Shown one piece after another: positions 5-42,144 of a DNA stretch of 64,000 bases. A program made the position numbers and the translations under genes. A model generated the notes under the pieces. The model was not told the origin of the DNA, ran no database searches, and worked only from the letters and a program-made list of their open reading frames with translations. The stretch is from an uncultured virus (IMG/VR IMGVR_UViG_3300033463_000112) (Duplodnaviria > Heunggongvirae > Uroviricota > Caudoviricetes): IMG/VR virus record IMGVR_UViG_3300033463_000112. One strand, given 5' to 3'. Positions within the stretch are counted from its first letter, which is position 1, and each line of letters begins with the position of its first letter.

Positions 5-1219
5 ATGCTCAGGGAAACCGCCAACTCGTATGTTGTGCGCACGACGGGCGTTTACAAACTCCCTCTTGTGTACGGTAACGCTATCAAGGGCGGCCAGACC
101 AATTCTGCCGCTTATACACGTCAGGGCTCAGACTACACGGCTGAATTTGTGAACCACCTCGGCAATCAGATTACCGACCCGTTCATTGAGAAAAACGCCA
201 ACTGTCAGCCCGCTTCCGTTGGCCTGCTCTGGCAGACCGGAACGAACCTGATTACGTCCGTTTCCCTTGTGGAGGGCGGCGACTGTAAGTACATTCAGTT
301 CACCGTTTCCAACGTTCCTACGGAAAACGGCCTCGCGGTCCTGTTCGTGAAAGACTCCGGCGGCCGTATCATGTGGTCGTGGACTATCTGGCTGACCTCC
401 GATACCCTGAACGAGGAAGTATTCAAGAGCGCGGCTCTGGCCGGTGCTGAATACCGCCTTATGCCCGAGAACCTGTTCTCTATCTGGAACGCCGCCCGCA
501 CCTACTGCGTTTGCCCTCATTTCCAGTGGGGACGAAAGGACGCAATGGTTCCCGCTTCGCTCGCTTCCGGTAGCTCGAACATGACCGTTTACGATATTAG
601 CGGCAACGCTATTTCGTGGGCCAGTTCCGCTACGCTCGGCTCGTCTGTTATCGGCGTGTTCGGCACGGACCAAGACGAATCTTCCGACAAGACCGTGGCG
701 AACGCCATTAAGAACCCGGGTATCTTCTTTACTCGCCACAATACGACCACGAACAACTGGAACAACCTGTCGTATTTCTACAACTTCTGGAACGCCCACA
801 TGACGAGCACTTCCGGCCAGCCTGCGGACGACCAAGACAGCGCAGTAAAGACTATCTACGACCCGTGCCCGGTGGGATTCATGCTCCCTGCCGCCCGCGC
901 TTTCACCGGCTTTACCACAACAGGTAACAATAGCTCCGATGCAACGCAGTTCAATGTTGTTGGCTCGTGGGCCTCTGGCTGGAAGTTCATGCGTAAGACC
1001 GGCGATACTCAGGGTAACTACTTCCCCGCTTCCGGCTATCGTGCCCTCGATTCCGGGGCCCTGTCGTACGTTACAGGTAACGGCTACTGTTGGAGTTTTG
1101 CTCCGAACTCTCAGGCCTACGCCCGTCGCCTGTACTTCCATTCAGGCGGCGTTTACCCGTTGTACTACTACGAGCGTTCCGGCGGGTTTGCGGTGCGCCC
1201 TTGCCGAGAATCTAATTAA
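5..1219 (+). CDS. DGR target protein 1, probable tail fibre/receptor-binding protein with C-terminal variable (CLec-like) domain; probably 5'-truncated by the window edge
   Basis: Frame is open from the window edge. The C-terminus (YFPASGYR...GYCWS...GFAVRPCRE) contains VR1, which matches TR except at adenines. The DPCPxGF..P motif is typical of Bacteroidota DGR-target/major-paralogous-domain proteins. Confidence 0.85.
   Translation: MLRETANSYVVRTTGVYKLPLVYGNAIKGGQTNSAAYTRQGSDYTAEFVNHLGNQITDPFIEKNANCQPASVGLLWQTGTNLITSVSLVEGGDCKYIQFTVSNVPTENGLAVLFVKDSGGRIMWSWTIWLTSDTLNEEVFKSAALAGAEYRLMPENLFSIWNAARTYCVCPHFQWGRKDAMVPASLASGSSNMTVYDISGNAISWASSATLGSSVIGVFGTDQDESSDKTVANAIKNPGIFFTRHNTTTNNWNNLSYFYNFWNAHMTSTSGQPADDQDSAVKTIYDPCPVGFMLPAARAFTGFTTTGNNSSDATQFNVVGSWASGWKFMRKTGDTQGNYFPASGYRALDSGALSYVTGNGYCWSFAPNSQAYARRLYFHSGGVYPLYYYERSGGFAVRPCRESN
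1026..1208 (+). repeat. DGR variable repeat VR1
   Basis: 183-bp ungapped match to TR (1989-2171); 21 mismatches by manual alignment, all opposite TR adenines. Confidence 0.97.
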
Positions 1220-1231
1220 ATCCTTTCATCG

Positions 1232-1255
1232 GTCCCGCCCTATTGCGGGCGGGAC
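1232..1255 (+). promoter_or_regulatory. DGR target-recognition hairpin downstream of VR1/IMH
   Basis: GTCCCGCCC-TATTGC-GGGCGGGAC, perfect 9-bp stem, after a 23-nt gap from the end of VR1. Confidence 0.85.
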
Positions 1256-1273
1256 TCCTAAACACGCTACTAC

Positions 1274-1453
1274 ATGAAAATAGTCATAGCCAACCATTCG
1301 ACAATAAACGTCGGCAAATGCACTAACGCGGAAATCGTTAGGGCAATACGCGAGTATGACCTTGCCAACGCTACGCCGGTGGATTGCATGGACTTTATCA
1401 AGGCACTTAAAGCAAGTATCAACAATGGAAATACAGAGCCTACCAGTCTATAA
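1274..1453 (+). CDS. small hypothetical protein (59 aa) inside the DGR cassette
   Basis: Manual translation MKIVIANHSTINVGKC...EPTSL*; fills the gap before avd and overlaps its start. Below the ORF-track cutoff. Confidence 0.4.
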   Translation: MKIVIANHSTINVGKCTNAEIVRAIREYDLANATPVDCMDFIKALKASINNGNTEPTSL

Positions 1454-1775
1454 CAAGACGCGCCAGCTTTATATCCAGATTCAAGCGAGTACTCAGAAGG
1501 TCCCGCGTAATATCCGGGTGAACCAGCTATCCGTTATCGAGAATATGCTTATAGACATTCTGGAGCATATCGCTTTCGCAAACGCAGCGCTGGAGAATCC
1601 CGGAGAGCGTTACAGGTTCATTTCAAACGCTATTGGCATTTTGCATCGGGTAGAAATCCGCGTGAGAATCCTTTTCGATTTGAACTACATAAAGAAACAG
1701 GGATTTAACGCCATAATCAAGTTAGAAAGCGAAGTGGCCCGCCAGCTTAATGGTTGGGCTCAGAAAAACAAATAA
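1425..1775 (+). CDS. avd: DGR accessory variability determinant (Avd-like four-helix bundle)
   Basis: 116-aa basic helical protein (LPVYNK...EVARQLNGW) between target and TR/RT. Start moved to ATG at 1425. Confidence 0.85.
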   Translation: MEIQSLPVYNKTRQLYIQIQASTQKVPRNIRVNQLSVIENMLIDILEHIAFANAALENPGERYRFISNAIGILHRVEIRVRILFDLNYIKKQGFNAIIKLESEVARQLNGWAQKNK

Positions 1776-1988
1776 TGGAGCACTTTTTCGGCATATTCTG
1801 GTCGTTATGGATTAGGGCCTGCGGTCCTGCGGTTAGTCGCAACTGTGGGTGTAAATCCAGTTTAATTCAGCGCCTTGCGCCTCGCAAGAGGTTCAGTTAT
1901 ACAAGGGACGTGCTCCCCGAAGTCCGCTCCGCCGTCAGCCGTTGGCTCCCGGCCTTGCGTTCATTCAAGACAAGGTGCTCTGAACGGG

Positions 1989-2171
1989 CCGCTTCCGGCT
2001 ATCGTGCCAACGATTCCGGGGCCCTGACGAACGTTACAGGTAACGGCAACTATTGGAGTTTTGCTCCGAACTCTCAGACCAACGCCCGTAACCTGAACTT
2101 CAATTCAGGCAACGTTAACCCGTTGAACAACAACGAACGTTCCAACGGGTTTGCGGTGCGCCCTTGCCGAG
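1989..2171 (+). ncRNA. DGR template repeat (TR)
   Basis: Adenine-retaining copy of VR1/VR2 with 14 AAC and 1 AAT codons in the target frame; immediately upstream of the RT. Confidence 0.97.
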
Positions 2172-2209
2172 CATTGAACACACGGCCAGAATACGCCTTT
2201 TAACAGACT

Positions 2210-3391
2210 ATGAGATACACGTTCGAGCAAATACATGAAATGGTTTTCGTGGGCTATCTGAAGGCCCGTGAACATGAACGCTCGTCTTTGGCGGCCATTG
2301 AATTTGAGCTCGAACTGGAAAGGAATATCAACGTGCTTTCGTGGGAGCTTTACCGCCGCACGTGGAACCCACTCCCGCTTGACTTTTTCGTACTGACTTA
2401 TCCTTCCGTCCGCGAGGTCTTTGCACCTCAGTTCCGGGATAGGGTTGTAAGTCACGTGCTTTTCAATATCCTTTCGCCCATTTATGAGCGAATCTTCATC
2501 TATGACTCTTACTCTTGCCGCACCGGTAAGGGGACGCTTTTCGGAATCCAGCGCTTTGAGCATGAGATACGGAGCGTCACTAAGAACTATACGCTTGATG
2601 CCTATTCTCTGAATCTGGATATATCCGGTTATTTCATGTCAATTAACCGCCAGATACTACGGAGCCTAATCTTCAAACGTCTGGAGAAAAACCGCAAGCT
2701 CAGGCCACACGAAATCGACTACAACTTTGCCATGTTCCTTGTTGACACGTTCCTGTCGCGCGACCCGTTGGAAGGTTGCGAGTACCACGGGAACCCGAAC
2801 CTGCGCAAGCTCGTTTTGCCGAATAAGAGCCTTTTCGGCCAGCCCGCCGGTGTTGGCCTCCCGATTGGTGACGTGATTAACCAGCTTAACTCAAATATCT
2901 ATCTGGACCCGTTCGACCAGTTTGTGAAGCGCGAGCTCAAAATCAAGGGCTATATCCGCTACGTGGACGATTCGCGCCAGTTGCATAACAGTTATGACTA
3001 TCTGCTGGAATGTAAAGAGCGCGGCGAACAGTTCCTCCTGAATGAGCTCGGTCTGAAAATCAACCACGCTAAGACGACGATTACCAGCGTGTATGAGCCG
3101 AACGAATTTTTAGGGGCCGTGGTGCTTCCGTTCCAGCGCTGGACTAAGCAAGAAACGGTTGTAAAGTTCAATGCGGCCTTTAAGAGCCTGAACACCAAAA
3201 TCCGTAACGGCGTTCCGATTGATATTGAGCAAGAGCTTAGCTGTATTAACGCCCGGCTCGGGTATATGCAGCACTTTGACGCGCGGCACGTTGTACGACG
3301 GGCCATTGAGAAGTCGGAGTACATAAGGACAATTTACCAGTTTGCACCGAACCAGAAACAAGCAACAATTCTAAATCCCAATACATTATGA
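2210..3391 (+). CDS. DGR reverse transcriptase
   Basis: 393 aa with RT motifs (REVFAPQFRDRVV, SYSCRTGKGT, LDISGYF, GLPIG..Q, YIRYVDD, FLG); no maturase or endonuclease extension; adjacent to TR and avd. Confidence 0.96.
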   Translation: MRYTFEQIHEMVFVGYLKAREHERSSLAAIEFELELERNINVLSWELYRRTWNPLPLDFFVLTYPSVREVFAPQFRDRVVSHVLFNILSPIYERIFIYDSYSCRTGKGTLFGIQRFEHEIRSVTKNYTLDAYSLNLDISGYFMSINRQILRSLIFKRLEKNRKLRPHEIDYNFAMFLVDTFLSRDPLEGCEYHGNPNLRKLVLPNKSLFGQPAGVGLPIGDVINQLNSNIYLDPFDQFVKRELKIKGYIRYVDDSRQLHNSYDYLLECKERGEQFLLNELGLKINHAKTTITSVYEPNEFLGAVVLPFQRWTKQETVVKFNAAFKSLNTKIRNGVPIDIEQELSCINARLGYMQHFDARHVVRRAIEKSEYIRTIYQFAPNQKQATILNPNTL

Positions 3392-6114: not shown

Positions 6115-6198
6115 TGGAGAGGGAAAGAATCGAACCTCCGTCTGCAAGGGGCCTATCCCGGGTACGTCCTTGCCGTGCTACCATTGCACCACCTCCCA
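6115..6198 (-). ncRNA. tRNA-like RNA with 20-nt anticodon loop
   Basis: Acceptor stem, D arm (GTGC-AATGGTA-GCAC) and T arm (GGAGG-TTCGATT-CTTTC) are present, but the GCAAG/CTTGC stem encloses 20 nt instead of 7. Confidence 0.7.
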
Positions 6199-22943: not shown

Positions 22944-23026
22944 TGGAGCCGGGCACTGGACTCGAACCAGCGACCGCATGGGAATCTGGCCGCCCCATGT
23001 GCTCTGGCCTGCTGAGCTAACCCGGC
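22944..23026 (-). ncRNA. tRNA-like RNA with 13-nt anticodon loop and encoded CCA
   Basis: Fully paired acceptor GCCGGGT/GCCCGGC-T-CCA, D arm GCTC/GAGC and T arm GCTGG-TTCGAGT-CCAGT; the CATGG/CCATG stem encloses GGCGGCCAGATTC. Confidence 0.75.
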
Positions 23027-23032
23027 AATTCG

Positions 23033-23104
23033 CGGACTCGGGAGGGGTCGAACCTCCGACCATTGCGTTAACAGCGCACTGCTCTACCACTGAGCTACGA
23101 ATCC
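23033..23104 (-). tRNA. tRNA-Asn(GTT)
   Basis: Cloverleaf; anticodon loop CTGTTAA; discriminator G. Confidence 0.9.
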
Positions 23105-23175
23105 AAATGCCGGTCTTTCCCGGCTGTCTGGTGTCAAACAATCAAATATGTACGCGACGCATCACTGCGGTATTG

Positions 23176-23259
23176 TGCCCGGGGCGGGAGTCGAACCCGC
23201 ACTCCATAACTGGAAATGGCTCCTTGGGCCATTGCGTCTGCCAGTTTCGCCACCCGGGC
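23176..23259 (-). tRNA. tRNA-Leu-type (long variable arm), anticodon loop CCAAGGA read as AAG
   Basis: GCCCGGG/CCCGGGC-A acceptor, Leu-like D loop, long variable arm; C instead of U at position 33. Confidence 0.75.
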
Positions 23260-27489: not shown

Positions 27490-27753
27490 TTAGCTCATTT
27501 TGTCATAGTCGTAGAGCGGAACGGCCGGATTGAGCGCCCCTGTCGCTGTTTCCACGTACAGGTTGTCAAAGCCGGTGTAGAGCCCGTTGGACCACATGAG
27601 CCCAATCCACGCGAGCGCGTCATTCACGCTCACGAAGTCTGCCGTGTGGAGCTTACCGCCTATTTTGATGCGGAACTCCTTTCGGCCGGTGCAGATAATC
27701 ACAATGGATTTCCGCACCAGTTCGTTTTTGTCCCTTTTTAACATTTTGAACAT
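27490..27753 (-). CDS. hypothetical protein
   Basis: Preceded by the AATCTTTGAGTTATG motif. Confidence 0.65.
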   Translation of the reverse strand: MFKMLKRDKNELVRKSIVIICTGRKEFRIKIGGKLHTADFVSVNDALAWIGLMWSNGLYTGFDNLYVETATGALNPAVPLYDYDKMS

Positions 27754-27769
27754 AACTCAAAGATTAAGA

Positions 27770-28594
27770 TTAAGAGAAAAACGCCTTAGCGGCGCTGGAT
27801 AGTTCTGTTTTCTTAGCGCACAGATAACGCTCGGTCATTGCCGTTCCTGAATGGCTCAGGATAGTGGAGATTTCCTGAACAGCCGCTCCACGGGTGTAGA
27901 GGTTCGTAGCACAAGAGCGCCGGGCCGCGTGGGACGACGCAAACTGCCACTTTGGCCCCCTTTCCTCCTTACCGGCTTTCTGGACCACCACCTCGTCGTC
28001 GATTCCGGCCAGCTTACACATTCGACGTACCGCCTCGTTGTAGCACTTGGTCGTAATCGTGATTTCCGGGTGGTCTGATACCCACTTGATACGCTCTTCC
28101 AGTCCCGGTTTCAGGGGGATAGACCCCGCCTTTTTCGTTTTCTGGGCCACGTACCGGAGCACCCCGTCAGTGATATTTTCGACTCTCAGATTCTTTGCGT
28201 CACTGACCCGCAGGCCAGTGAAAGCGCAAATCAGAAACAGGTTTTTGACAAGCTCCTGTTTGCCCGTGTGCGTGGGAGCACTGGCGAACAGCGTAAGCTC
28301 GTCCTCTGTCAGATAGGTGTTCATGGGTCTTACGGCCTTTGCCGTCAGAATCTTGCGCCAGTCCGTCGGGAGTTCGATTTCCTCGCAATAGCGGTTGAAA
28401 AGTGACTTTGCGTAGGCCATGACGGTCTTAACGGTGTTGGGAGCAAGCTCAGAGGTTAGGTGGTCGTGAAACTCATACAGCGCCGAGCGGGTAACGTCTT
28501 TCCAGTCGTAGATACCGACGGCGCTCAGGTGCTTGCGGAGGGTCCCGCCAGCGCCTTTTTGCATCTTGTCGATTGCTTCTTTTAGTGTTCTCAT
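27770..28594 (-). CDS. second tyrosine recombinase lacking an arm-binding domain
   Basis: TGLRVSD, K, SSHAARRS, LSH and TERY motifs; only 274 aa. Confidence 0.9.
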   Translation of the reverse strand: MRTLKEAIDKMQKGAGGTLRKHLSAVGIYDWKDVTRSALYEFHDHLTSELAPNTVKTVMAYAKSLFNRYCEEIELPTDWRKILTAKAVRPMNTYLTEDELTLFASAPTHTGKQELVKNLFLICAFTGLRVSDAKNLRVENITDGVLRYVAQKTKKAGSIPLKPGLEERIKWVSDHPEITITTKCYNEAVRRMCKLAGIDDEVVVQKAGKEERGPKWQFASSHAARRSCATNLYTRGAAVQEISTILSHSGTAMTERYLCAKKTELSSAAKAFFS

Positions 28595-28660
28595 AACTCA
28601 AAGATTTTTAAATTGGCGGGCCGGTGGTCGGTCAGGACCGCCAGCCCGAAATGGGGAAGA

Positions 28661-28891
28661 TTACTTTTCGCCTTCGGCTTTGATATAATCTTCAAGGGCC
28701 TTCAGGCACTTTTCGATAAGGACCTTCAGCGCGTCCTGAATCTCATTGGCGGCGAAGAGGGCCTTCTTCTTTTTGTCGTCGAGGTTTTCGTGCCTCGAAA
28801 GCGCGGCGGAGGCCACGGTGAGCTTGATTCGTTCGTCGGTTGCGTGGTCGGCAATCCACATAAGCTCGTTAACAGAAAAATCTACTTGCAT
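28661..28891 (-). CDS. hypothetical protein
   Basis: Starts at the repeated motif. Confidence 0.7.
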   Translation of the reverse strand: MQVDFSVNELMWIADHATDERIKLTVASAALSRHENLDDKKKKALFAANEIQDALKVLIEKCLKALEDYIKAEGEK

Positions 28892-28958
28892 AACTCAAAG
28901 ATTTAAAGTTGAACATAGGATTGGCAAGCGGGCCGGGAATCACCCCGCCCCGCCCGTT

Positions 28959-29327
28959 TTAAAAGCCTTTCGGCCCGGGTCCCTCCACCTTCTCGGTGGC
29001 AAAGGAATAATGAGAACCGCCGCAGATAATGATAAAGTCAACTATCTTAATGTCGGTTCCGATTACGGCCTTTTTCCACGACTCGGCCATTTTGATTTCG
29101 TCCTCCGTCGGCCGGGGGTCGCCGGTCCGGCGCACAACGACGATAAAGCCCTTTGTGCCGAGCGGGTTCTTTTCTGCATCTTCCAGACGAATAGGGATAT
29201 TGTCTTTATCCAGAAGGATACAGGTGTTTGGGTGGTCGGAGTCCACGAGCGCGAATCCGTGGTTTACGAAGGTAACTGCGCCCCATGAGCTTGTAATGGG
29301 CGTAGAAAATGCTTGTTTTTCGGTCAT
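28959..29327 (-). CDS. degenerate RadC/JAB-like protein
   Basis: C-terminus GDPRPTEDE...DIKIVDFIIICGGSHYSFA resembles RadC but lacks the HxH motif. Confidence 0.55.
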   Translation of the reverse strand: MTEKQAFSTPITSSWGAVTFVNHGFALVDSDHPNTCILLDKDNIPIRLEDAEKNPLGTKGFIVVVRRTGDPRPTEDEIKMAESWKKAVIGTDIKIVDFIIICGGSHYSFATEKVEGPGPKGF

Positions 29328-29794
29328 AACTCAAAGATTTAGAACTGGAGAAGGAAAGGGCGGTCAGGCCCCCTCCTCCTTTTTGCGTTTCGGCTCGCAG
29401 AATCCGCAGTGGCCGAATATCACCATAGAAGCACTGTTGTAGCGCTCTTTCTTGCACCCGGTCTTGTTGCTCCAGAACTGGCAATTTACGCAGGGTTCGT
29501 CGTTTTGTGGTTTCATAAGCTCAAAGTGTTAATGATTGGCGGAGGTGGGCGCGTATCAGGCCCCGCCCCCCTTGTTACTTCCCGAGGATTTCCTTTTCGA
29601 TTTCGGCCGCCAGATGCCGGGCCTTATCCTGAAGGCCGAGCCCGAACGTGCCGGATAGATAGAAAAGCTCCATTACGTGACCTTTGGCAATCTTGCCGTC
29701 CAGCAGGCCGGAGGCTACCATGTTGGCAGTGCCCTCCAGATGCTCCTCGGCGTACTTTTGTAGGTTTTCTTTTGTGATTTCTTTCGGCATAGCT

Positions 29795-30004
29795 CTAATT
29801 TTTAATAATTCTAAATTCGTCCTCTTCCGGGATAACCGCAAGGCTGCCCCAAGTGCCGTGTAACTGGCCGATTCCGTCAATGTGTGTCACCTCACCGGTG
29901 CGGCCGTTGTATGCGCGGGCCTGAAGGTCCTTGCCGTTGGAGTCGTTCATGCGTACTATCTGGATAGTGTCGCCCACTTTTACGTTCGGGTTATTCGTTC
30001 TCAT
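29795..30004 (-). CDS. DUF4314-like protein
   Basis: GDTI..V.M.D...GRTGEVTHIDGIGQLHGTWGSLAVIPEED.F pattern. Confidence 0.7.
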   Translation of the reverse strand: MRTNNPNVKVGDTIQIVRMNDSNGKDLQARAYNGRTGEVTHIDGIGQLHGTWGSLAVIPEEDEFRIIKN

Positions 30005-30176
30005 GGCTGACTTCCGCTAAGGTAGTGAGAATTTTGTTTAATTCCGCTATTGTGTCGTCAAATTTGACGCGGGCAATGGGAATTTGCTCAGTTACCCGGC
30101 GAAGGTCGCCGATAGTATGGAGAACACACTCGCCGATAAGGTCCAGTTGCTCCTTTGTGAAAGCTACTTCATACAT
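29991..30176 (-). CDS. hypothetical protein
   Basis: Starts at the repeated motif. Confidence 0.65.
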   Translation of the reverse strand: MYEVAFTKEQLDLIGECVLHTIGDLRRVTEQIPIARVKFDDTIAELNKILTTLAEVSHENE

Positions 30177-30249
30177 AACTCAAAGATTTTAAAAGTTTTA
30201 CTTAGTTGTTTGGAGTCCGGGAAGGGAATCACCCCCGCCCGGGCTTGTT

Positions 30250-30519
30250 TCAGTACGGGAACGAGCACCCGTTTTCAAACCACTTACAGACGGACTCGGT
30301 GGCCGCGTCCAGCGTCAGACTATCCATGCCTGAGAGGATATTGTTTCCTACCCAGAAGGATACCATGTAGATTTCCTCGTTACTTTCCCGTTTCCACGGG
30401 TCAAGTTCTACCCTTACGGACTCTTGTTTGTCCGGGCCGGTGTACTGGAGCCGTGCTTCGTTTTCGTAGCAGGCGAATAAGATTTGGCGCTTGATTTCGT
30501 TTTTGTTTTCCTCGGTCAT
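30250..30519 (-). CDS. hypothetical protein
   Basis: Starts at the repeated motif. Confidence 0.7.
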   Translation of the reverse strand: MTEENKNEIKRQILFACYENEARLQYTGPDKQESVRVELDPWKRESNEEIYMVSFWVGNNILSGMDSLTLDAATESVCKWFENGCSFPY

Positions 30520-30577
30520 AACTCAAAGATTTAGAGATTTGGCGAAGGCGGGACCGGCCGGGGCCCCGTCCCCGTGA

Positions 30578-31060
30578 TTAGAAGTAACGCGGGTTCATGT
30601 GTTGCGCGATTTTCAGGCACAATTCATCGGCCTTAGCGGCCGCGTCTTGCATTTCCTTAATGAGCTTTATCGGCTTTCCCTCGTCCGCAAAATTGCGTGC
30701 GGCTGCCCTGAATCCAGAGGCGTAGTCCTGCAGGGCCAGTTTGCACTGAATCAGGTCCTCAAAGGTCATTTCTACGTTTTCGGTCTTGCCTTCCGGCCTC
30801 GCGTCCCAGCCGGATACCCATTCGAGCATCAGGAGGGTGTCGGGCTCTTTGTAGTCCCTGTTGGACCGCCAGACTTCCTCGGCTGCGGCCTTGATAGAAT
30901 CGCGTTCGCAATCAAAGATTACGCACTCGGTCCCGGCGGGCGCGTGCCCGGCCACGTTGCCCGAGAAAACAAGCTCATCGAAGATTTCCCGCATCATCAT
31001 ATACCCGAGTTGATAGTCCGGGCTGGCGGGGTCTGTGCTTTTGATAGATAGCTTATACAT
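30578..31060 (-). CDS. hypothetical protein
   Basis: Starts at a motif variant. Confidence 0.7.
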   Translation of the reverse strand: MYKLSIKSTDPASPDYQLGYMMMREIFDELVFSGNVAGHAPAGTECVIFDCERDSIKAAAEEVWRSNRDYKEPDTLLMLEWVSGWDARPEGKTENVEMTFEDLIQCKLALQDYASGFRAAARNFADEGKPIKLIKEMQDAAAKADELCLKIAQHMNPRYF

Positions 31061-31115
31061 AACTCAATGATTTAGTTGGTTTAGCGAAGGTAGGGGCGGT
31101 CAAGCCCCGGCCTCC

Positions 31116-31514
31116 TTAATCATCAACGAACAGCATAATGTCCTCCACGGAAAAGTCTATATCCTCGTCCGCATCGAGCCCCTCGTCGTAGCAGTAGTCG
31201 TCGATTTGTTCCCGGATTTCGTTTGTAAGGTCCCTATCGGCGCGTTCGGCCAAGCAGCGGTCCCTATCCATTATCCCCAGCGCCCGGAGGGCTCTTTGGT
31301 CGAAATCCTCGATATTCTCTTTGCATCGGAGCCACACAGCCCGCCGGGGCTCGTCCTTTCGTAGAACGTCGAACATTTCCGGGGTCAGCTTTGAAAGGTC
31401 AAGTTTCACGGAGTCGCCAGTATAGTAGCCGGTAATTTCGAGTACCGAGCCGTCAAAGGTAAAGCTCTTGCTGCCGTTAATGATTTTGATTGCGTTTTCG
31501 TAGGTCTGTTTCAT
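31116..31514 (-). CDS. acidic hypothetical protein
   Basis: Starts at the repeated motif; D/E-rich C-terminus. Confidence 0.7.
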   Translation of the reverse strand: MKQTYENAIKIINGSKSFTFDGSVLEITGYYTGDSVKLDLSKLTPEMFDVLRKDEPRRAVWLRCKENIEDFDQRALRALGIMDRDRCLAERADRDLTNEIREQIDDYCYDEGLDADEDIDFSVEDIMLFVDD

Positions 31515-31571
31515 AACTCAAAGATTTAAAGATTTGCAGAGGCGGCTCCGGTCAGGGAACCGCCCCCGTTT

Positions 31572-31820
31572 TTACTCATTCGGCTGCAGGTCGTCGGTCC
31601 ATAGGTCGTAATCGTCGCCCGCAAAGCAAAAGCCACCGCAGCAGAGGTTTGAATCCAGTAGTTTGCGGTCCAGTTGCAAGCAATAATCAGACTCCCGGAC
31701 GGCCTCGATAGCCTCGGCGGCGTTTTCGTACACCGCATCGGGCTCCCAGCCTGTTAAATTCGCGTTGGCGGTCACGTAGGCCATGCCGCCGACAGCCAGA
31801 AATACATAGATTTTTTTCAT
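31572..31820 (-). CDS. acidic hypothetical protein
   Basis: Starts at the repeated motif. Confidence 0.65.
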   Translation of the reverse strand: MKKIYVFLAVGGMAYVTANANLTGWEPDAVYENAAEAIEAVRESDYCLQLDRKLLDSNLCCGGFCFAGDDYDLWTDDLQPNE

Positions 31821-31861
31821 AACTCAAAGATTTTTAGATAGTTGGCGAAGAAGGGCGAGTA

Positions 31862-32290
31862 TCAGTCCCCCTCCTCCATTTTTTCAAGCTCAGAGATAAA
31901 CGGCGCTAAGTACGAAAAATCATACTTCTTCATTGCGTGCTCCCGGACGTTGGGGTTAAAATCCTCCGGCCGTGGCGCATATCTGGATAAATCGTCCCAT
32001 GTCAGACGTATTGCCTCGGCGGCGGTCCCCGGCTCAATTTCCTCCCCGGCGGTTAATTTCTCCAGCACGGCGGCAATGAAAGGCCGGGCCCCGGCGGCGC
32101 GGTTTGTTTTCAGGGCTTTTAGCGCGTTTCTCAGGATTGTTTGGATAGCTGCCCCCTCCTCTACTTTTCGTATCAAATTTGCGGCGTTTTCGGCCGTTTC
32201 CCGGTCATTTGCGCGGCGCGTCGATGATACCAAAAGCAGGAAGGGCAGCTCAATCAAGACTGCAAGCGGAATAATCCATAAAGGGCTCAT
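31862..32290 (-). CDS. membrane-anchored hypothetical protein
   Basis: N-terminal hydrophobic helix. Confidence 0.6.
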   Translation of the reverse strand: MSPLWIIPLAVLIELPFLLLVSSTRRANDRETAENAANLIRKVEEGAAIQTILRNALKALKTNRAAGARPFIAAVLEKLTAGEEIEPGTAAEAIRLTWDDLSRYAPRPEDFNPNVREHAMKKYDFSYLAPFISELEKMEEGD

Positions 32291-32528
32291 TTTTGTAAAG
32301 ATTTTTAGTAATTGGCGAGCGTGGGTCCGGTCAGGGGCCCCCGCCCTTTCTTTTTCTCAGGAATACCCCCCCCGTCTTTATTTTTGGGAGTGGTCCTTTG
32401 CCATTTCGTTAATGATAGCGGCAATAATCATCATGGGAATAAAGATAGTCATAACTCAAAGATTTTAAAGATTTTGAACCCCCGGGCGCGGGTCGGGCCC
32501 CCGGGGATTAGGTCGGCATGGTGGTTTG

Positions 32529-32963
32529 TTAGTCGGTCACTTTTTCGTAATAGGCGCGGCCCTCTTCGGAGAGGTTATTTACGCACCAATTATCGACGGC
32601 CAGCCACGCGGCATTGTACTCGCGGGCGAGGCGGTCAAAGTGCTTATAGGCCCGCACTTTGTTGTGCTTTTTGGCCCGCTCGGCGGCGGTGTAGTGGGCG
32701 AAGAGCTTATGATTCAGGACCAATGCAAGCTCGGTCATGAACTTGTAATTGTCCCGGCCGCCGAGCACGGCGCTTTTGAACGTTTCCCGGATAGCCCTGA
32801 TAGGGTCCTCGCCGAACTGCGGGGCCCTTTCGGCTATTGAGAAGTCCTGCCAGAGCGTCGTCAGCGGCTTGTAGCCATTTTCGGCGGCCTGTTCCCATTT
32901 CGGGAGCTTACTCAGAAACTCGTTAACCTTTTTCATGTCGATTTCGATGAACTTGATTTCCAT
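32529..32963 (-). CDS. hypothetical protein
   Basis: Starts at the motif; TTLWQDFSIAE...TELALVLNHK...YYEKVTD. Confidence 0.7.
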   Translation of the reverse strand: MEIKFIEIDMKKVNEFLSKLPKWEQAAENGYKPLTTLWQDFSIAERAPQFGEDPIRAIRETFKSAVLGGRDNYKFMTELALVLNHKLFAHYTAAERAKKHNKVRAYKHFDRLAREYNAAWLAVDNWCVNNLSEEGRAYYEKVTD

Positions 32964-33031
32964 AACTCAAAGATTTTAGATTGTTTAACATTGGATTGGC
33001 GGGCGGGGTCCCGGTCAGGGGGCCCGGCTCG

Positions 33032-33398: not shown

Positions 33399-34205
33399 TT
33401 AGCAAGATAGCATTTTTACAATTTCCGGCGTTTTCATGCCGCGCAGGTCGTAAAAAGATACTACCTTTTTGAGATTCAGCCCGGCCTCCTTTGCGCACGT
33501 TTGCACATGGTCCCGGTCATTTATCGGGGTTCCATGTCCGATTGTAAAATAGGACGATTTGAGCCCCGGCACGACCTCCACAAAACGCAAAAAATGCCTT
33601 CTCAGCATGGACGGGTTAACGAGGGGATATGCCATTTTTCGCACGTCTATATATTGCCCGGAGTCCTTAATCCTTACAAACATATTGCAGGACTCAGTGC
33701 TGCAGCGGGAACCGAAATAAACGTACAAATTAACCCGGTATCCGTTTTTTTCAAGTCCTAAAACGGCATTTGTCAGGGCGGCGGCCGTTTGTGCAATTTC
33801 GTTTTTATCGACGCTGCAATCGGCGCTCCCGTTGTAACAAAGATTTAGAACTTTGCTATCTTTGTATGTAACTTTTTTCGTTGCATACATGGACCGGGGC
33901 AGGCCTATCAGGGCGGCGGCTACATTTGCGGTCCCGCCGCAAACTGCGGCGTATCGTCTTACTTTGTACCCCTCCCCGGCGGCGTTGATATGCACCCCGG
34001 CGGCGGCCTTCAGGGCGGCGGCGCTTTTTTCGTCCCCGTCCCGCAGCAGCACGTTTGCGGCGGCGTATGATTCAGTCCCGGAGAACTCCTCGCTCCCGGT
34101 CTGAGAACCGAGGCGGCGGCCCCTGAAAACGTTATTTTCCGGCGTGGTATCAAGATAGCGCCGGAGCCCGTCTAAATTTGTGAAACTTTGTACATGGTTT
34201 TTCAT
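33399..34205 (-). CDS. putative VWA-like partner of the MoxR ATPase
   Basis: Adjacent to the AAA ATPase; alternating beta/alpha pattern; no intact MIDAS motif seen. Confidence 0.5.
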   Translation of the reverse strand: MKNHVQSFTNLDGLRRYLDTTPENNVFRGRRLGSQTGSEEFSGTESYAAANVLLRDGDEKSAAALKAAAGVHINAAGEGYKVRRYAAVCGGTANVAAALIGLPRSMYATKKVTYKDSKVLNLCYNGSADCSVDKNEIAQTAAALTNAVLGLEKNGYRVNLYVYFGSRCSTESCNMFVRIKDSGQYIDVRKMAYPLVNPSMLRRHFLRFVEVVPGLKSSYFTIGHGTPINDRDHVQTCAKEAGLNLKKVVSFYDLRGMKTPEIVKMLSC

Positions 34206-34265
34206 AACTCAAAAGATTTTTAATTTGTGCTCCCGGGGTCCGTATCAGGGGCCCCGGGGCTCGTG

Positions 34266-35405
34266 CTACATTGCAAGTGCGAAGGCGTTATCTTTGTGAC
34301 TCAGCCCGGCGCGAAGTATGTTTATTTCGTCCCGGTCATATCCCCCCGTCACTGCAAGACGGACGGCCTCGGCGGTATCCATGCCCGCCTTCATGAACTT
34401 TGCAAGACGGGAAATATTGCGATACCCGAGGACGATATGAACCCCGGCGGCGGCGGCCGATTTTCTCATGTCCCGAATGAACTCGAGCACTTCGATTGAG
34501 CCCCCCGCCAAATGTTTTTCAATTTTGCCGCAATAATCGAACTGCAGCGGGCAAAATCTATTCAGGGAGGCGGCATCTAAAACGCTGCGCCCGTTGTATT
34601 CTTCCGTTGCACCCCGGCCGCAGGTATTTCCGGCCGCGATACAATGAAAATCGGGGTGCATTTTTACACGCCCGCAGGGGAAGGTAAAATATCCGTTTGC
34701 GAGGGCGGCGTTTAGTGTTACAAGTGTATCAGGGCAGGAGGCGTCGAGCTCATCTAACATGAAGAGCCCGCCGTTTTTAAAAGCCCGGAAAAATTCCGTT
34801 TCATGATAGGTCCCGTTTGCATCTATAAACCCGGTTAATTTGTACTCGTCCGTTATCGAATTTTGATAATAGAACTCGATACCGAGGCGGCGGGCAATTT
34901 GCTCGCAAACGTGATTTTTACCGGACCCGGCCGGACCATAAAGATAGACGGACTCGCCGAGCTCCATGCAGGCTAAAATCGTGTTAAATTTATCATGCAG
35001 GACCTCGGCGGGGCTATCTTTGCGGGCGGCCTTCTCAGGCTCGGCCGGGACGGGTGCGGGCTCGGGTTCCGGCATGGGTGCGGGAACCGGGGCGGGCTCG
35101 CCCGGGCGGCGGGTGCGGTGCGAAATATTGCGCCGTATTTCGTCGTATTCAGGGGTCCCGAAATATACAAAACTTTGCAATTTTTCCGGACCGCAGGAGG
35201 CCAAAATTCCGGCGGCGTTTTCAGGGCTCAAAACGGCGGCATTATCGCAAAGTTTATACATAAATTTCCAGCCGTACATATTGCCGAGGCGGGTATTATT
35301 CCACGCCTGAGAATGTGAACCGAGGAACCATGTGGAACCTTCCACGATAATAGCGCTCTTTTTGCCGTTAACATAGCACTTCAAAATGTTTACATTGTTT
35401 TTCAT
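34266..35405 (-). CDS. MoxR/CbbQ-like AAA+ ATPase
   Basis: Walker A GPAGSGK, Walker B FMLDELD, IAAGNT and LDAASLNRF motifs. Confidence 0.85.
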   Translation of the reverse strand: MKNNVNILKCYVNGKKSAIIVEGSTWFLGSHSQAWNNTRLGNMYGWKFMYKLCDNAAVLSPENAAGILASCGPEKLQSFVYFGTPEYDEIRRNISHRTRRPGEPAPVPAPMPEPEPAPVPAEPEKAARKDSPAEVLHDKFNTILACMELGESVYLYGPAGSGKNHVCEQIARRLGIEFYYQNSITDEYKLTGFIDANGTYHETEFFRAFKNGGLFMLDELDASCPDTLVTLNAALANGYFTFPCGRVKMHPDFHCIAAGNTCGRGATEEYNGRSVLDAASLNRFCPLQFDYCGKIEKHLAGGSIEVLEFIRDMRKSAAAAGVHIVLGYRNISRLAKFMKAGMDTAEAVRLAVTGGYDRDEINILRAGLSHKDNAFALAM

Positions 35406-40509: not shown

Positions 40510-41400
40510 ATGATTACTGAATTTTCCCCTATCCCGGAAGGATTCTTTGGCGAAAACGGCCTTACGGCCACTTCTGCGAACCATATCGCAAACCTCCTGA
40601 AGCTCAGGTATGAAACAATCGAGAATGAGCTCGATTCGCTGAATTTCGTAACTGAGAAAATGTCTATCGTGGGTTCTGAGGTTGAGAACCTTATGCGCTC
40701 CGCCCGCGTGATTCCGCTCGAGGATATTCGCGTGAAGCTGGACGAAGTGGCCCGGTGCAAGGGCTTTATCGCGTTCCTCCGCGAGGCTATCAAGTGCAAG
40801 TCTGAGCTTGCGCAGGAAATTGAGGACTTCCAGAGCCCGATTCCCGCCGCTCCGCTTGCGCCAATTCCCGAACGTCCCGTTTCCGAACAGGCCGTCATTG
40901 CCGGGTGGTCCGTTGGCGAACGGGTCAAGTTTCTTGCAACCGAGGCCCGGGCCGCTACCTACGGCAAGTATATCCACCCCGGCGGCGTGCTTGACAAGGC
41001 ACGCGACCGCGCTTACGAGGCTTTCATGGAGCCGACTAAGGTTGCAATGGCTGGCCGTGATACGGCCTTCATTAAGCGCGAAACGGCGGTATCTACGGCC
41101 GAAATCGACGCTGTGATGATGAGCCTTCAGGCCGAGCACAGGCGTTCCGAGGCTGAGCTTAACGGCTACAAGCACGACGTTGAATACAAGGTACAGGCCG
41201 ACGCGCAGCGCAAGCTGGACGAGTACCGTGAAAAGAAACAGGCCCACGAAAAGGCCGTGGCCGAACACGAGCGCCAGTGTGACGCTATCGCGCTGGCAGA
41301 CAAACAGGCCAGACTGGACCGCCGCAAGCTCATTGAAGAGCTCAAAATCATTATCCCGAACCAGTATCGGGACCTGTATAACGCTGTGAATAACGGGTAG
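40510..41400 (+). CDS. coiled-coil hypothetical protein
   Basis: 296 aa; GLTATSANHIANL, AFLREAIK and YGKYIHPGG segments. Confidence 0.75.
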   Translation: MITEFSPIPEGFFGENGLTATSANHIANLLKLRYETIENELDSLNFVTEKMSIVGSEVENLMRSARVIPLEDIRVKLDEVARCKGFIAFLREAIKCKSELAQEIEDFQSPIPAAPLAPIPERPVSEQAVIAGWSVGERVKFLATEARAATYGKYIHPGGVLDKARDRAYEAFMEPTKVAMAGRDTAFIKRETAVSTAEIDAVMMSLQAEHRRSEAELNGYKHDVEYKVQADAQRKLDEYREKKQAHEKAVAEHERQCDAIALADKQARLDRRKLIEELKIIIPNQYRDLYNAVNNG

Positions 41401-41680
41401 CCGTATGGCCCGGGGCCAGTCCCCGGACTACGGCGCACGGGTATAGTGTAAGCAAAATATGTGACTTAAAACCAATCGTGGGGGCGCGTCACTGCCCACA
41501 GCTAAAATCAAGTGCAATGGTAGCACACGGGTATTTGGAACCTGCGTAGCCGTTCGATTCGGCAAAATGGCTCCAGTGCCGAAAAGTCAGTTTTTCTGCC
41601 TTTGTCCTCGCCCTTGTTGGCACTGGAGGTCCTCGCCTTCGCCATTGCCCTTACCTTAGTGGCTTACACTATATCCCGGC
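41398..41680 (+). ncRNA. candidate structured ncRNA with embedded tRNA-like domain
   Basis: 12-bp closing stem 41442-41453/41662-41673; D, anticodon and T arms at 41512-41564; 10-bp stem 41571-41580/41619-41628. Confidence 0.55.
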
Positions 41681-42144
41681 TCGTTTTAATATAACAAAAT
41701 TGTTTCATAGATGAACATTAAAGACTGGCAGAACCGCTTTGCGGAACTGGCCGCAGAGTGCCAGAAAGATTGCTGCGCTCGCATCGAGAGCGTCACGGTC
41801 AGGAATTGGGACGATTCGGGCACTACCCCGGTATGCGACAAGGCGTATTTCAAAGTAGAAATCGACTTCAGATGATACTTCCACCGATGCCAAACGCCGA
41901 GGCCACTGAGAGCCTCCGTAAGCTCATGGCCGCCAATCCGGACCTTACCGTTGCCGACGTGGAACGAAACCCGGAAACTGGCCTGTATGAGCTAAAAAAG
42001 CCTCCCGTTTCCGAGAGGCCAAATCTTTGAGTTATTCGACAACATCACGTCGTCTTTGCCGCAAAGGTGCGAAATTTTCACTTTATTTGCAAAATTCGCT
42101 AAAAAATAGGCGTTTTTGGCAAATAAAATCCGTTATTTCTTGAA

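What the first reader, a model, noticed from the sequence alone, without database searches (positions are those of the whole stretch)
41398..41680. Candidate new structured RNA wrapping a tRNA-like domain with a sequestered CCA
Seen: after the 296-aa gene come a hairpin (41400-41434) and a perfect 12-bp long-range stem (TATAGTGTAAGC/GCTTACACTATA). This stem encloses a small hairpin and a tRNA-like unit: D arm GTGCAATGGTAGCAC (identical to that of the 6115-6198 element), CGGGT-ATTTGGA-ACCTG arm, GCCG-TTCGATT-CGGC T arm, a weak acceptor, then TCCA. It also encloses a perfect 10-bp stem (CTCCAGTGCC/GGCACTGGAG) that pairs the CCA, and pyrimidine-rich GTCCTCGCC repeats. Established: bacterial Y RNAs and tmRNA combine tRNA-like domains with extra helices. 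Inference: an undescribed ncRNA, possibly partnered with the upstream protein. No Ro60 or SmpB gene is visible here.
Basis: partly seen in the sequence, partly recalled or inferred. Interest (0 to 1): 0.7.

Follow-up and report, generated by a model that had tools for sequence, protein, structure and literature searches.

The report
Gut-phage protein with repeat-bearing partner RNA
This is a real folded RNA that sits right behind a gene of unknown function in many gut phages and bacteria, carrying about seven short repeats that probably bind that gene's protein; the tRNA-like piece first noticed is only an optional insert.

Summary
41392-41689 is one member of a structured RNA family that follows homologues of the 296-aa gene 40510-41400. 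Conserved parts: a three-way junction (P0, P1, P2), an inner stem P3, a variable arm, and two tracts of a hexamer G-n-Y-n-U-n, about seven units in all. The motif follows the gene in 82 of 86 non-redundant loci (0 in flanking controls) and 11 of 12 held-out loci. In a pattern scan, 26 of 32 hits had the gene upstream and the other 6 were simple coding repeats. Helices covary in two clades (27 of 47 and 36 of 36 pairs). The tRNA-like arms are real but occur in only 4 of 86 elements, have no acceptor stem, and the 'CCA' is just part of P3. Neither RNA nor protein matched Rfam, Pfam, PHROGs, NCBIfam, PADLOC or PDB, and ten paper searches found no description. Best reading (0.5): a two-part ribonucleoprotein in which copies of the protein bind the hexamers. 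Binding, oligomer state and biological role are inferred, not shown.

The parts
40510..41400 (+). 296-aa gene of an unnamed family; helical protein with two beta-hairpins; proposed RNA partner
   Evidence: ORF; 1180 clusters at 50% identity with E<=0.001; AlphaFold2 pLDDT 90.6, pTM 0.85; no family hit
41392..41398 (+). P0 5' strand, overlapping the last codons of the gene
   Evidence: pairs with 41679-41685; 100% of cells paired, 2 of 7 pairs compensatory in 10 sequences (helix 1)
41400..41434 (+). P1 hairpin; relatives often carry a CUGA/GAAA internal loop, degenerate here
   Evidence: (helices 2-3); CTGA..GAAAC pattern in 30 of 86
41439..41453 (+). P2 5' strand (long closing stem), preceded by a short conserved linker 41435-41439
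   Evidence: 8 of 10 pairs compensatory; 18 of 18 in a second clade
41460..41499 (+). pseudoknot of the variable arm, limited to this subclade (41460-41465/41488-41493 and 41478-41482/41495-41499)
   Evidence: (helices 5-6: 2 of 6 and 3 of 5 pairs compensatory; second stem only 76% paired)
41512..41563 (+). tRNA-derived insert: D, anticodon-like (TTG, Gln-like) and T arms, no acceptor stem; optional
   Evidence: Rfam 27.5 bits, positions 9-63; T arm in 4 of 86 elements; one extra T in the anticodon-like loop in 3 of 4 RNA runs
41571..41580 (+). P3 5' strand (contains the 'CCA')
   Evidence: 6 of 10 pairs compensatory, 97% paired (helix 7)
41598..41615 (+). hexamer tract 1 (three G-n-Y-n-U-n units) in the P3 loop
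41619..41628 (+). P3 3' strand
41629..41652 (+). hexamer tract 2 (four clear units, then degenerate ones to about 41661)
   Evidence: best two-tract score in the window, 33.6 bits
41662..41676 (+). P2 3' strand
41679..41689 (+). P0 3' strand and short U-tract (likely 3' end)
   Evidence: a run of four or more T follows tract 2 in 64 of 86

Best explanation
A two-part module: the gene and, transcribed straight after it, a structured RNA of roughly 230-370 nt that is the protein's own ligand. The RNA folds by joining its ends (P0, P2) around a conserved three-way junction and displays two single-stranded tracts of G-n-Y-n-U-n on either side of the P3 3' strand. Copies of the protein bind these hexamers, probably one unit per subunit and about seven in all, reading G1, Y3 and U5, so the RNA acts as the scaffold that sets how many subunits assemble and keeps them together. 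The arm between P2 and P3 is free to vary and takes up tRNA pieces (here Gln-like arms; a whole tRNA-Thr in L005). Shown: structure by covariation, plus strand favoured, one-to-one linkage, fixed period and near-fixed count, absence of a conserved reading frame. Inferred: co-transcription, direct binding, oligomer, stoichiometry. The downstream role is probably in phage-host or phage-phage conflict, judged only from the patchy distribution.
For: Linkage: motif >=18 bits within 400 nt after the stop in 82 of 86 non-redundant loci, against 0 of 86 on the opposite strand, 0 of 80 upstream and 0 of 76 further downstream; 11 of 12 held-out loci. Reverse test: 26 of 32 pattern hits have the gene upstream on the same strand, the other 6 lie antisense in simple-repeat ORFs. 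No other neighbour family in more than 5 of 89 clusters, antisense shadow frames aside. Covariation: 27 of 47 pairs and 36 of 36 pairs, 0 of 500 shuffles. Position entropies 0.42, 1.78, 0.97, 1.49, 0.22, 1.35 bits; position 3 is a pyrimidine in 99% whatever the neighbours, which neither strand's codon table requires. Units: 6 in 20, 7 in 53, 8 in 12, 15 in 1 of 86. Protein has many conserved basic and aromatic columns, e.g. K31, R91, K95, K97, K153, H156, R165, R183, R211, K279. Contigs of four RNA runs (one study) cover 41408-41428 to 41596-41679. Precedent for subunit-per-repeat binding: TRAP, 11 subunits on 11 (G/U)AG repeats (PMC4027176, search listing) and Vipr on GGY/NN repeats (10.64898/2026.04.26.720920, abstract and one section).
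Against: No direct evidence of binding or of an oligomer. The unit count was found with a search that imposed at least 2+4 units, and the weight matrix was trained on the same 86 loci. An alignment-free duplex test supported P3 in only 40 of 86 and P2 in 63 of 86; one of five covariation measures did not beat the shuffles (359 of 500); both structures were derived from the alignments they were counted on. Linkage alone does not separate a ligand from a cis-acting 3' element. Conserved lysines and arginines are common in coiled coils. The RNA contigs come from one study and cannot show strand, ends or level, and DNA can be present in such libraries. One held-out locus (L274) keeps the gene with an interrupted, decayed RNA.
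Confidence: 0.5

Rival explanations
1. Toxin with RNA antitoxin (works like type III TA or AbiF): the protein inhibits growth or a competing phage and the RNA's repeats hold it inactive until the RNA is lost. This is a specific version of the binding model.
For: Strict gene-RNA pairing; rare and scattered in bacteria (0 of 300 other genomes of the order; varied neighbours that include GmrSD, WYL, Nmad3, integrases). AbiF precedent of an adjacent RNA with repeated motifs that neutralises its protein (10.1101/2025.04.15.648962, abstract and one section).
Against: No PADLOC, Pfam or NCBIfam family is shared by more than 1 of 54 members at E<=0.01 for PADLOC and NCBIfam (Pfam on the window protein only); no recognisable nuclease motif in the alignment; most chromosomal neighbours are metabolic; L274 keeps the gene with a broken RNA. 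The AbiF RNA in the paper read lies upstream of its gene.
Confidence: 0.2
2. The RNA is a cis-acting 3' element of the mRNA, or a decoy for a host pyrimidine-binding protein, and does not bind the upstream protein; linkage reflects co-transcription only.
For: P0 overlaps the last codons in this subclade and in L233, so a terminating ribosome could open it; U-tract after the element in 64 of 86.
Against: A large covarying fold with a fixed repeat count kept across proteins of about 30% identity, and never found apart from this gene in the pattern scan, is more than a stabilising 3' hairpin needs; some loci have a spacer between stop and P0.
Confidence: 0.17
3. A VIPR-like non-contiguous guide: positions 1, 3, 5 are held by the protein and positions 2, 4, 6 pair with a gapped target.
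For: Alternating fixed and free positions; phage-borne gene plus repeat RNA, as for VIPR.
Against: Tract positions are no more variable among close relatives than the rest (27 of 900 against 227 of 6298); free positions are biased to U/C and avoid G; one RNA per locus, no array; no contiguous target in the window or the own mRNA; the protein model shows no RRM/RAMP-type arrangement. Gapped targets were not searched.
Confidence: 0.05
4. A self-cleaving ribozyme (hammerhead-like at P1, or HDV/theta-like after the tRNA-like unit) that processes the transcript.
For: CUGA and GAAA face each other in P1 of 30 of 86; TCCTCGC in the window recalls the HDV L3 loop (recalled); theta ribozymes follow phage tRNAs (PMC10879173, passages).
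Against: Full CUGANGA..GAAA in 2 of 86, and the flanks pair with each other rather than forming the hammerhead junction; my HDV descriptor hit 1 of 86, on the minus strand of L005 (no positive control); no Rfam ribozyme in the element.
Confidence: 0.04
5. A decayed tRNA-Gln with chance flanking stems, or a short hydrophobic peptide gene.
For: The insert is tRNA-derived; tract 2 reads as alternating hydrophobic codons in one plus frame.
Against: The flanking fold covaries and persists without any tRNA arm in 82 of 86; the two tracts lie in all three relative frames (22/35/29); in-frame ATG upstream in 25 of 86 and distance to the stop 11-185 codons.
Confidence: 0.03

Closest known systems
Ro60 (Rsr) with bacterial Y RNAs (YrlA)
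   Same: RNA encoded beside its protein in bacteria and phages; ends paired into a long stem; a tRNA-like domain can be present (PMC4201824, passages).
   Different: Protein is not a TROVE protein by Pfam or fold search; the GNCGAAN0-1G motif is in 4 of 86; the tRNA-like part is optional and in D-anticodon-T order without an acceptor-like hairpin; hexamer tracts are the conserved core.
VIPR (Vipr protein and vrRNA)
   Same: Phage-borne gene with a repeat RNA of alternating fixed and free positions plus a structured part.
   Different: Period 6 not 5; about 7 units split in two tracts inside a large fold; free positions not hypervariable; one RNA per locus; protein is not RAMP-like in the model.
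AbiF / type III toxin-antitoxin
   Same: Two-part protein and RNA cassette on mobile elements, RNA with repeated motifs.
   Different: No match to the abiF motif or any other Rfam family, no Abi/HEPN family hit; toxicity untested; RNA lies downstream here and upstream in the C. difficile case read.
TRAP and trp leader RNA
   Same: Model for a ring or oligomer reading short spaced repeats, one per subunit.
   Different: Unrelated fold and size; repeats lie in a dedicated downstream RNA, not an operon leader.
tmRNA
   Same: Combines tRNA-like arms, a pseudoknot and long helices.
   Different: No acceptor stem, has D and anticodon-like arms, no conserved tag frame or stop, not called by ARAGORN or Rfam.
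GOLLD and ROOL phage RNAs (recalled, no call)
   Same: Phage RNAs often near tRNA clusters; GOLLD is recalled to carry tRNAs in a variable region. Here 14 of 26 viral clusters have a tRNA or tmRNA within the fetched locus.
   Different: Much shorter, no Rfam match, and tied to one protein gene.

Membership tests
tRNA | 7-bp acceptor stem ending in NCCA | tested here: not met
   Rfam covers positions 9-63 only; ARAGORN negative; CCA not kept in relatives
tRNA | D, anticodon and T arms | tested here: met
   T stem has 4 pairs; anticodon-like loop varies in length among RNA runs
Y RNA (YrlA) | encoded next to a Ro60/TROVE gene | tested here: not met
   adjacent protein has no Pfam TROVE hit; none among 45 further window proteins scanned (45 of 84 ORFs of 130 aa or more, shadow frames and those scanned earlier left out); no conserved third gene
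Y RNA (YrlA) | GNCGAAN0-1G motif near the 5' end | tested here: not met
   4 of 86
Y RNA (YrlA) | conserved tRNA-like domain | tested here: not met
   T-arm-like hairpin in 4 of 86
tmRNA | alanyl acceptor stem and tag reading frame with fixed stop | tested here: not met
   ARAGORN finds no tmRNA in 86 elements; stop distance 11-185 codons
VIPR | 5-nt GGY/NN repeats with hypervariable NN | tested here: not met
   period 6; no excess variation
VIPR | RAMP/RRM-fold protein | tested here: inconclusive
   model is helical with two hairpins; no RAMP among fold-search rows, but absence from a list does not exclude
Type III TA / AbiF | Rfam antitoxin motif and Abi/ToxN-family protein | tested here: not met
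   no Rfam hit in the element; no shared PADLOC, NCBIfam or PHROG family
Type III TA / AbiF | protein toxic, neutralised by the RNA | not testable with these tools
   needs expression tests
Hammerhead ribozyme | CUGANGA and GAAA core at a three-stem junction | tested here: not met
   2 of 86; no Rfam hit
HDV-like / theta ribozyme | nested double pseudoknot with J4/2 cytosine | tested here: inconclusive
   own descriptor hit 1 of 86, minus strand, none in the window element; no positive control; no Rfam hit

The most novel reading that the evidence does not exclude
A new class of ribonucleoprotein in which the RNA counts out the assembly: about seven hexamers template a ring, pore or cage of a protein with an undescribed fold, and the variable arm is a cargo slot that repeatedly captures tRNA elbows and anticodon loops and presents them as decoys or baits in phage-host conflict over translation.
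Probability: 0.2. Interest if true: 0.9.

Novelty: categorically new. Interest (0 to 1): 0.74.

Why it matters
It defines a compact, clonable two-part system (about 1.2 kb) that is spread over more than a thousand protein clusters, mostly in gut phages and Bacteroidales, with neither part in the family libraries searched. The alternating G-n-Y-n-U-n code and near-fixed unit count give a direct test of RNA-set stoichiometry. A freely variable arm that tolerates whole tRNAs would make it a natural RNA display scaffold. 'Categorically new' refers to this RNA class and protein family; protein-plus-RNA cassettes as such are known, and large motif collections that I could not search may hold the RNA as an unnamed cluster.

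Tried and rejected
No whole genome is held for the window. blastn of the element against 50,697 phage records gave only short chance matches; a D-arm/anticodon pattern found only the window's own contig. Rfam found nothing in the element of the window, of L006, or of 12 and 16 homologous loci apart from tRNAs and one unrelated pistol ribozyme outside it. Protein: no PDB sequence match below E 0.025; Foldseek PDB none at E<=0.001 for the whole model or for residues 10-225; VIA-align best Z 7.0, rmsd 3.9, 113 aligned, generic helical bundles; the same search for the 10-225 model did not finish; BFVD gave one uncharacterised phage protein (TM 0.77); ESM Atlas only unnamed clusters or nothing; no plasmid hit, 2 phage records. 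None of this shows that the fold is new. The two halves of the protein look alike in secondary structure but hhalign found no similarity. In the four RNA runs no contig covered 41680-42084 or 39800-40586, and gene pieces appeared only in X1; contigs of X1 and X2 both stop at 41679, X2 with adapter sequence behind; one study, contigs only, so this ranks nothing. A second two-tract hit at 30487 (25.4 bits) is the antisense of a small ORF. A search for an empty insertion site in 40 relatives each of G004 and G001 found no clean filled/empty pair. My count of where the outermost helix starts was too noisy to use. The window's reverse transcriptase belongs to a DGR 38 kb away and no RT is a conserved neighbour, so a template role was dropped. 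Four look-ups of earlier scan findings returned nothing (five answered in all).

Full report
Setting. The window is a tailed phage: primase, Holliday-junction resolvase, portal, terminase and capsid genes flank the locus, and it carries tRNAs. The finding lies between the stop of a 296-aa ORF (40510-41400) and a small ORF from 41711. Relatives of the gene lie in viral contigs and mostly in Bacteroidales genomes.

Observation. The tRNA-like unit matches Rfam tRNA only at positions 9-63, below the gathering score. It has D, anticodon-like (TTG) and T arms but no 5' acceptor strand, and on its own folds no better than chance. Its D arm equals that of the 6115-6198 element.

The family. The protein has 253 relatives in one search and 1180 clusters at 50% identity in another. 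Of 179 loci fetched by then, 178 held the gene end; they fell into 89 clusters by downstream sequence, 86 with at least 250 nt (3 dropped as too short). All 86 scored above the best of 86 shuffled controls for two tracts of a hexamer repeat, though the margin for the weakest was thin (15.9 against 15.6 bits). With the final matrix, 82 of 86 reach 18 bits, against 0 of 86 on the opposite strand, 0 of 80 upstream and 0 of 76 further downstream. Of 80 loci fetched later, 12 were new and 11 carry the motif at 32-44 bits; the twelfth, L274, has an interrupted, decayed copy. In the reverse direction, a repeat pattern gave 32 viral hits: 26 have the gene upstream on the same strand (one only its end), and 6 are antisense to simple-repeat ORFs. 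No third gene is shared by more than 5 of 89 clusters once antisense shadow frames are set aside. The gene is single-copy in 5 of 5 genomes tested, was not found in 300 other genomes drawn from the order, and has varied neighbours among 135 proteins scanned of 176 listed. It is an accessory two-part cassette.

RNA anatomy. From 5' to 3': P0, P1 hairpin, short conserved linker, P2, variable arm, P3, loop with tract 1, P3 3' strand, tract 2, P2 3' strand, P0 3' strand, U-tract. In 10 close relatives, 91% of cells pair and 27 of 47 pairs show changes on both sides; four of five measures beat all 500 shuffles and one did not. In 19 sequences of other clades, all 36 pairs of P0, P1 and P2 show such changes, score 0.83 against at most 0.18 when slid. 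Both structures came from the alignments on which they were counted. An alignment-free test was weaker: P2 in 63 of 86, P3 in 40 of 86, nested order in 73 of 86. The plus strand folds better in 66 of 86, and the median z of 29 sampled elements is -3.3. The hexamer is G-n-Y-n-U-n: G 93%, Y 99%, U 97% at positions 1, 3, 5. Tract 1 has 2-3 units and tract 2 has 4-5; the total is 7 in 53 of 86, with the caveat that the search imposed at least 6.

Not a peptide gene, not a guide. The tracts lie in all three relative frames, an in-frame ATG precedes tract 2 in 25 of 86, and the stop lies 11-185 codons on. The pyrimidine at position 3 is kept even where either strand's codons would allow a purine (inference from the genetic code). 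Among close relatives the tracts vary no more than the rest (27 of 900 against 227 of 6298); no contiguous complement stands out in the window or in the gene's own mRNA; no second copy lies in the loci.

The tRNA part is a passenger. T-arm-like hairpins occur in 4 of 86 elements (window, L005, L006, L083; 0.1 expected). L005 holds a whole tRNA-Thr in the variable arm; L006 has D, TTG and T arms with different but paired stems; L083 and L004 have a GCT anticodon-like loop. Three of four RNA runs show an extra T in the anticodon-like loop. The 'CCA' is part of the covarying P3 strand and is absent from the other 9 aligned sequences. So this subclade does take up and partly keep tRNA arms, which may still form an elbow, but they do not define the family.

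Expression. Contigs from four bovine-gut RNA runs of one study cover the element from 41408-41428 to 41596-41679. This shows presence in RNA libraries; contigs cannot give strand, ends or level.

Protein. AlphaFold2 gives a confident model (pLDDT 90.6, pTM 0.85): long helices with two beta-hairpins (core alone 91.3). No family is shared by more than 1 of 54 members in PADLOC, NCBIfam or PHROGs, and Pfam gave the window protein nothing at its cut-offs. Conserved columns are rich in K, R, H and aromatic residues, which fits nucleic-acid binding but does not show it.

Mechanism. I favour (0.5) a ribonucleoprotein in which protein copies bind the hexamers, about one each, with the RNA as scaffold. 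The structure, linkage and repeat code are shown; binding, oligomer and role are inferred by analogy with TRAP and Vipr. The main rivals are a toxin held by an RNA antitoxin (0.2) and a cis-acting 3' element or host-protein decoy (0.17); guide, ribozyme and decayed tRNA readings are unlikely.

Comparison and literature. It works like Ro60-Y RNA, AbiF or VIPR in being a gene with its own RNA, but fails their defining tests (see Membership tests). Ten full-text searches found no description of this family; several were aimed at comparison systems, and the library lacks most subscription papers. Seen: 10.64898/2026.10.21.760802, abstract, sections 2.2, 2.3, 2.5 and passages, where periods of 5, 7, 8, 10, 18 and 60-79 are discussed and none of 6; its database and supplements were not seen and may hold this RNA as an unnamed cluster. 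10.64898/2026.04.26.720920, abstract and one section. 10.1101/2025.04.15.648962, abstract and one section. PMC4201824 and PMC10879173, passages. PMC4027176, search listing. GOLLD, ROOL, the HDV loop, hammerhead core and kink-turn features are recalled and come from no call. One GenBank phage record annotates the RNA region as a hypothetical CDS.

Verdict. A real, expressed-looking, covarying RNA family with a dedicated protein gene, both unnamed in the libraries searched. Interest 0.74.

Noticed in passing
window 6115-6198 (-): tRNA-like gene between tRNA-Lys and tRNA-Met with a 20-nt anticodon loop and a U1-C72 mismatch; 39.1 bits to Rfam tRNA in a local search, missed by ARAGORN and by the whole-window scan. 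Could be an intron-bearing tRNA or a decoy.
   Followed up: partly
window 5-3391 (+): Diversity-generating retroelement: target gene 5-1219, Avd-like gene 1356-1775, reverse transcriptase 2210-3391, and a 186-nt repeat pair at 1026-1211 and 1989-2174, 88% alike.
   Followed up: partly
window 27751-32973 (-), also 6016, 16870, 24668, 24911, 42024: The 13-mer TCTTTGAGTTATG occurs 16 times with at most one mismatch (0.03 expected), mostly ending in the start codon of small minus-strand genes: a shared translation-start or promoter motif.
   Followed up: partly
window 22944-23259 (-): Second tRNA cluster (Leu, Asn, and an odd Arg(GCG) called by ARAGORN but not by Rfam), preceded by a structured-looking non-coding stretch up to 23500.
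   Followed up: no
L005 3437-3509: A complete tRNA-Thr(GGT) lies inside the variable arm of the RNA.
   Followed up: yes
alignment A6, P3 loop (e.g. L017, L067, L162, L165): Many members, not the window, have a CC-nnn-GA...GA-GG hairpin in the P3 loop that resembles a kink-turn (recalled); a strict pattern matched 11 of 86.
   Followed up: partly
L024, L025, L035-L037, L039, L046: These phages encode a tmRNA within about 1 kb upstream of the gene.
   Followed up: no
L298 310-372: Pistol ribozyme about 830 nt upstream of the gene.
   Followed up: no
L274 2110-2660: Gene intact but RNA interrupted by about 300 nt and its repeats decayed.
   Followed up: partly
window 33399-35405 (-): AAA ATPase (AAA_5) with a DUF7192 partner gene.
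   Followed up: no
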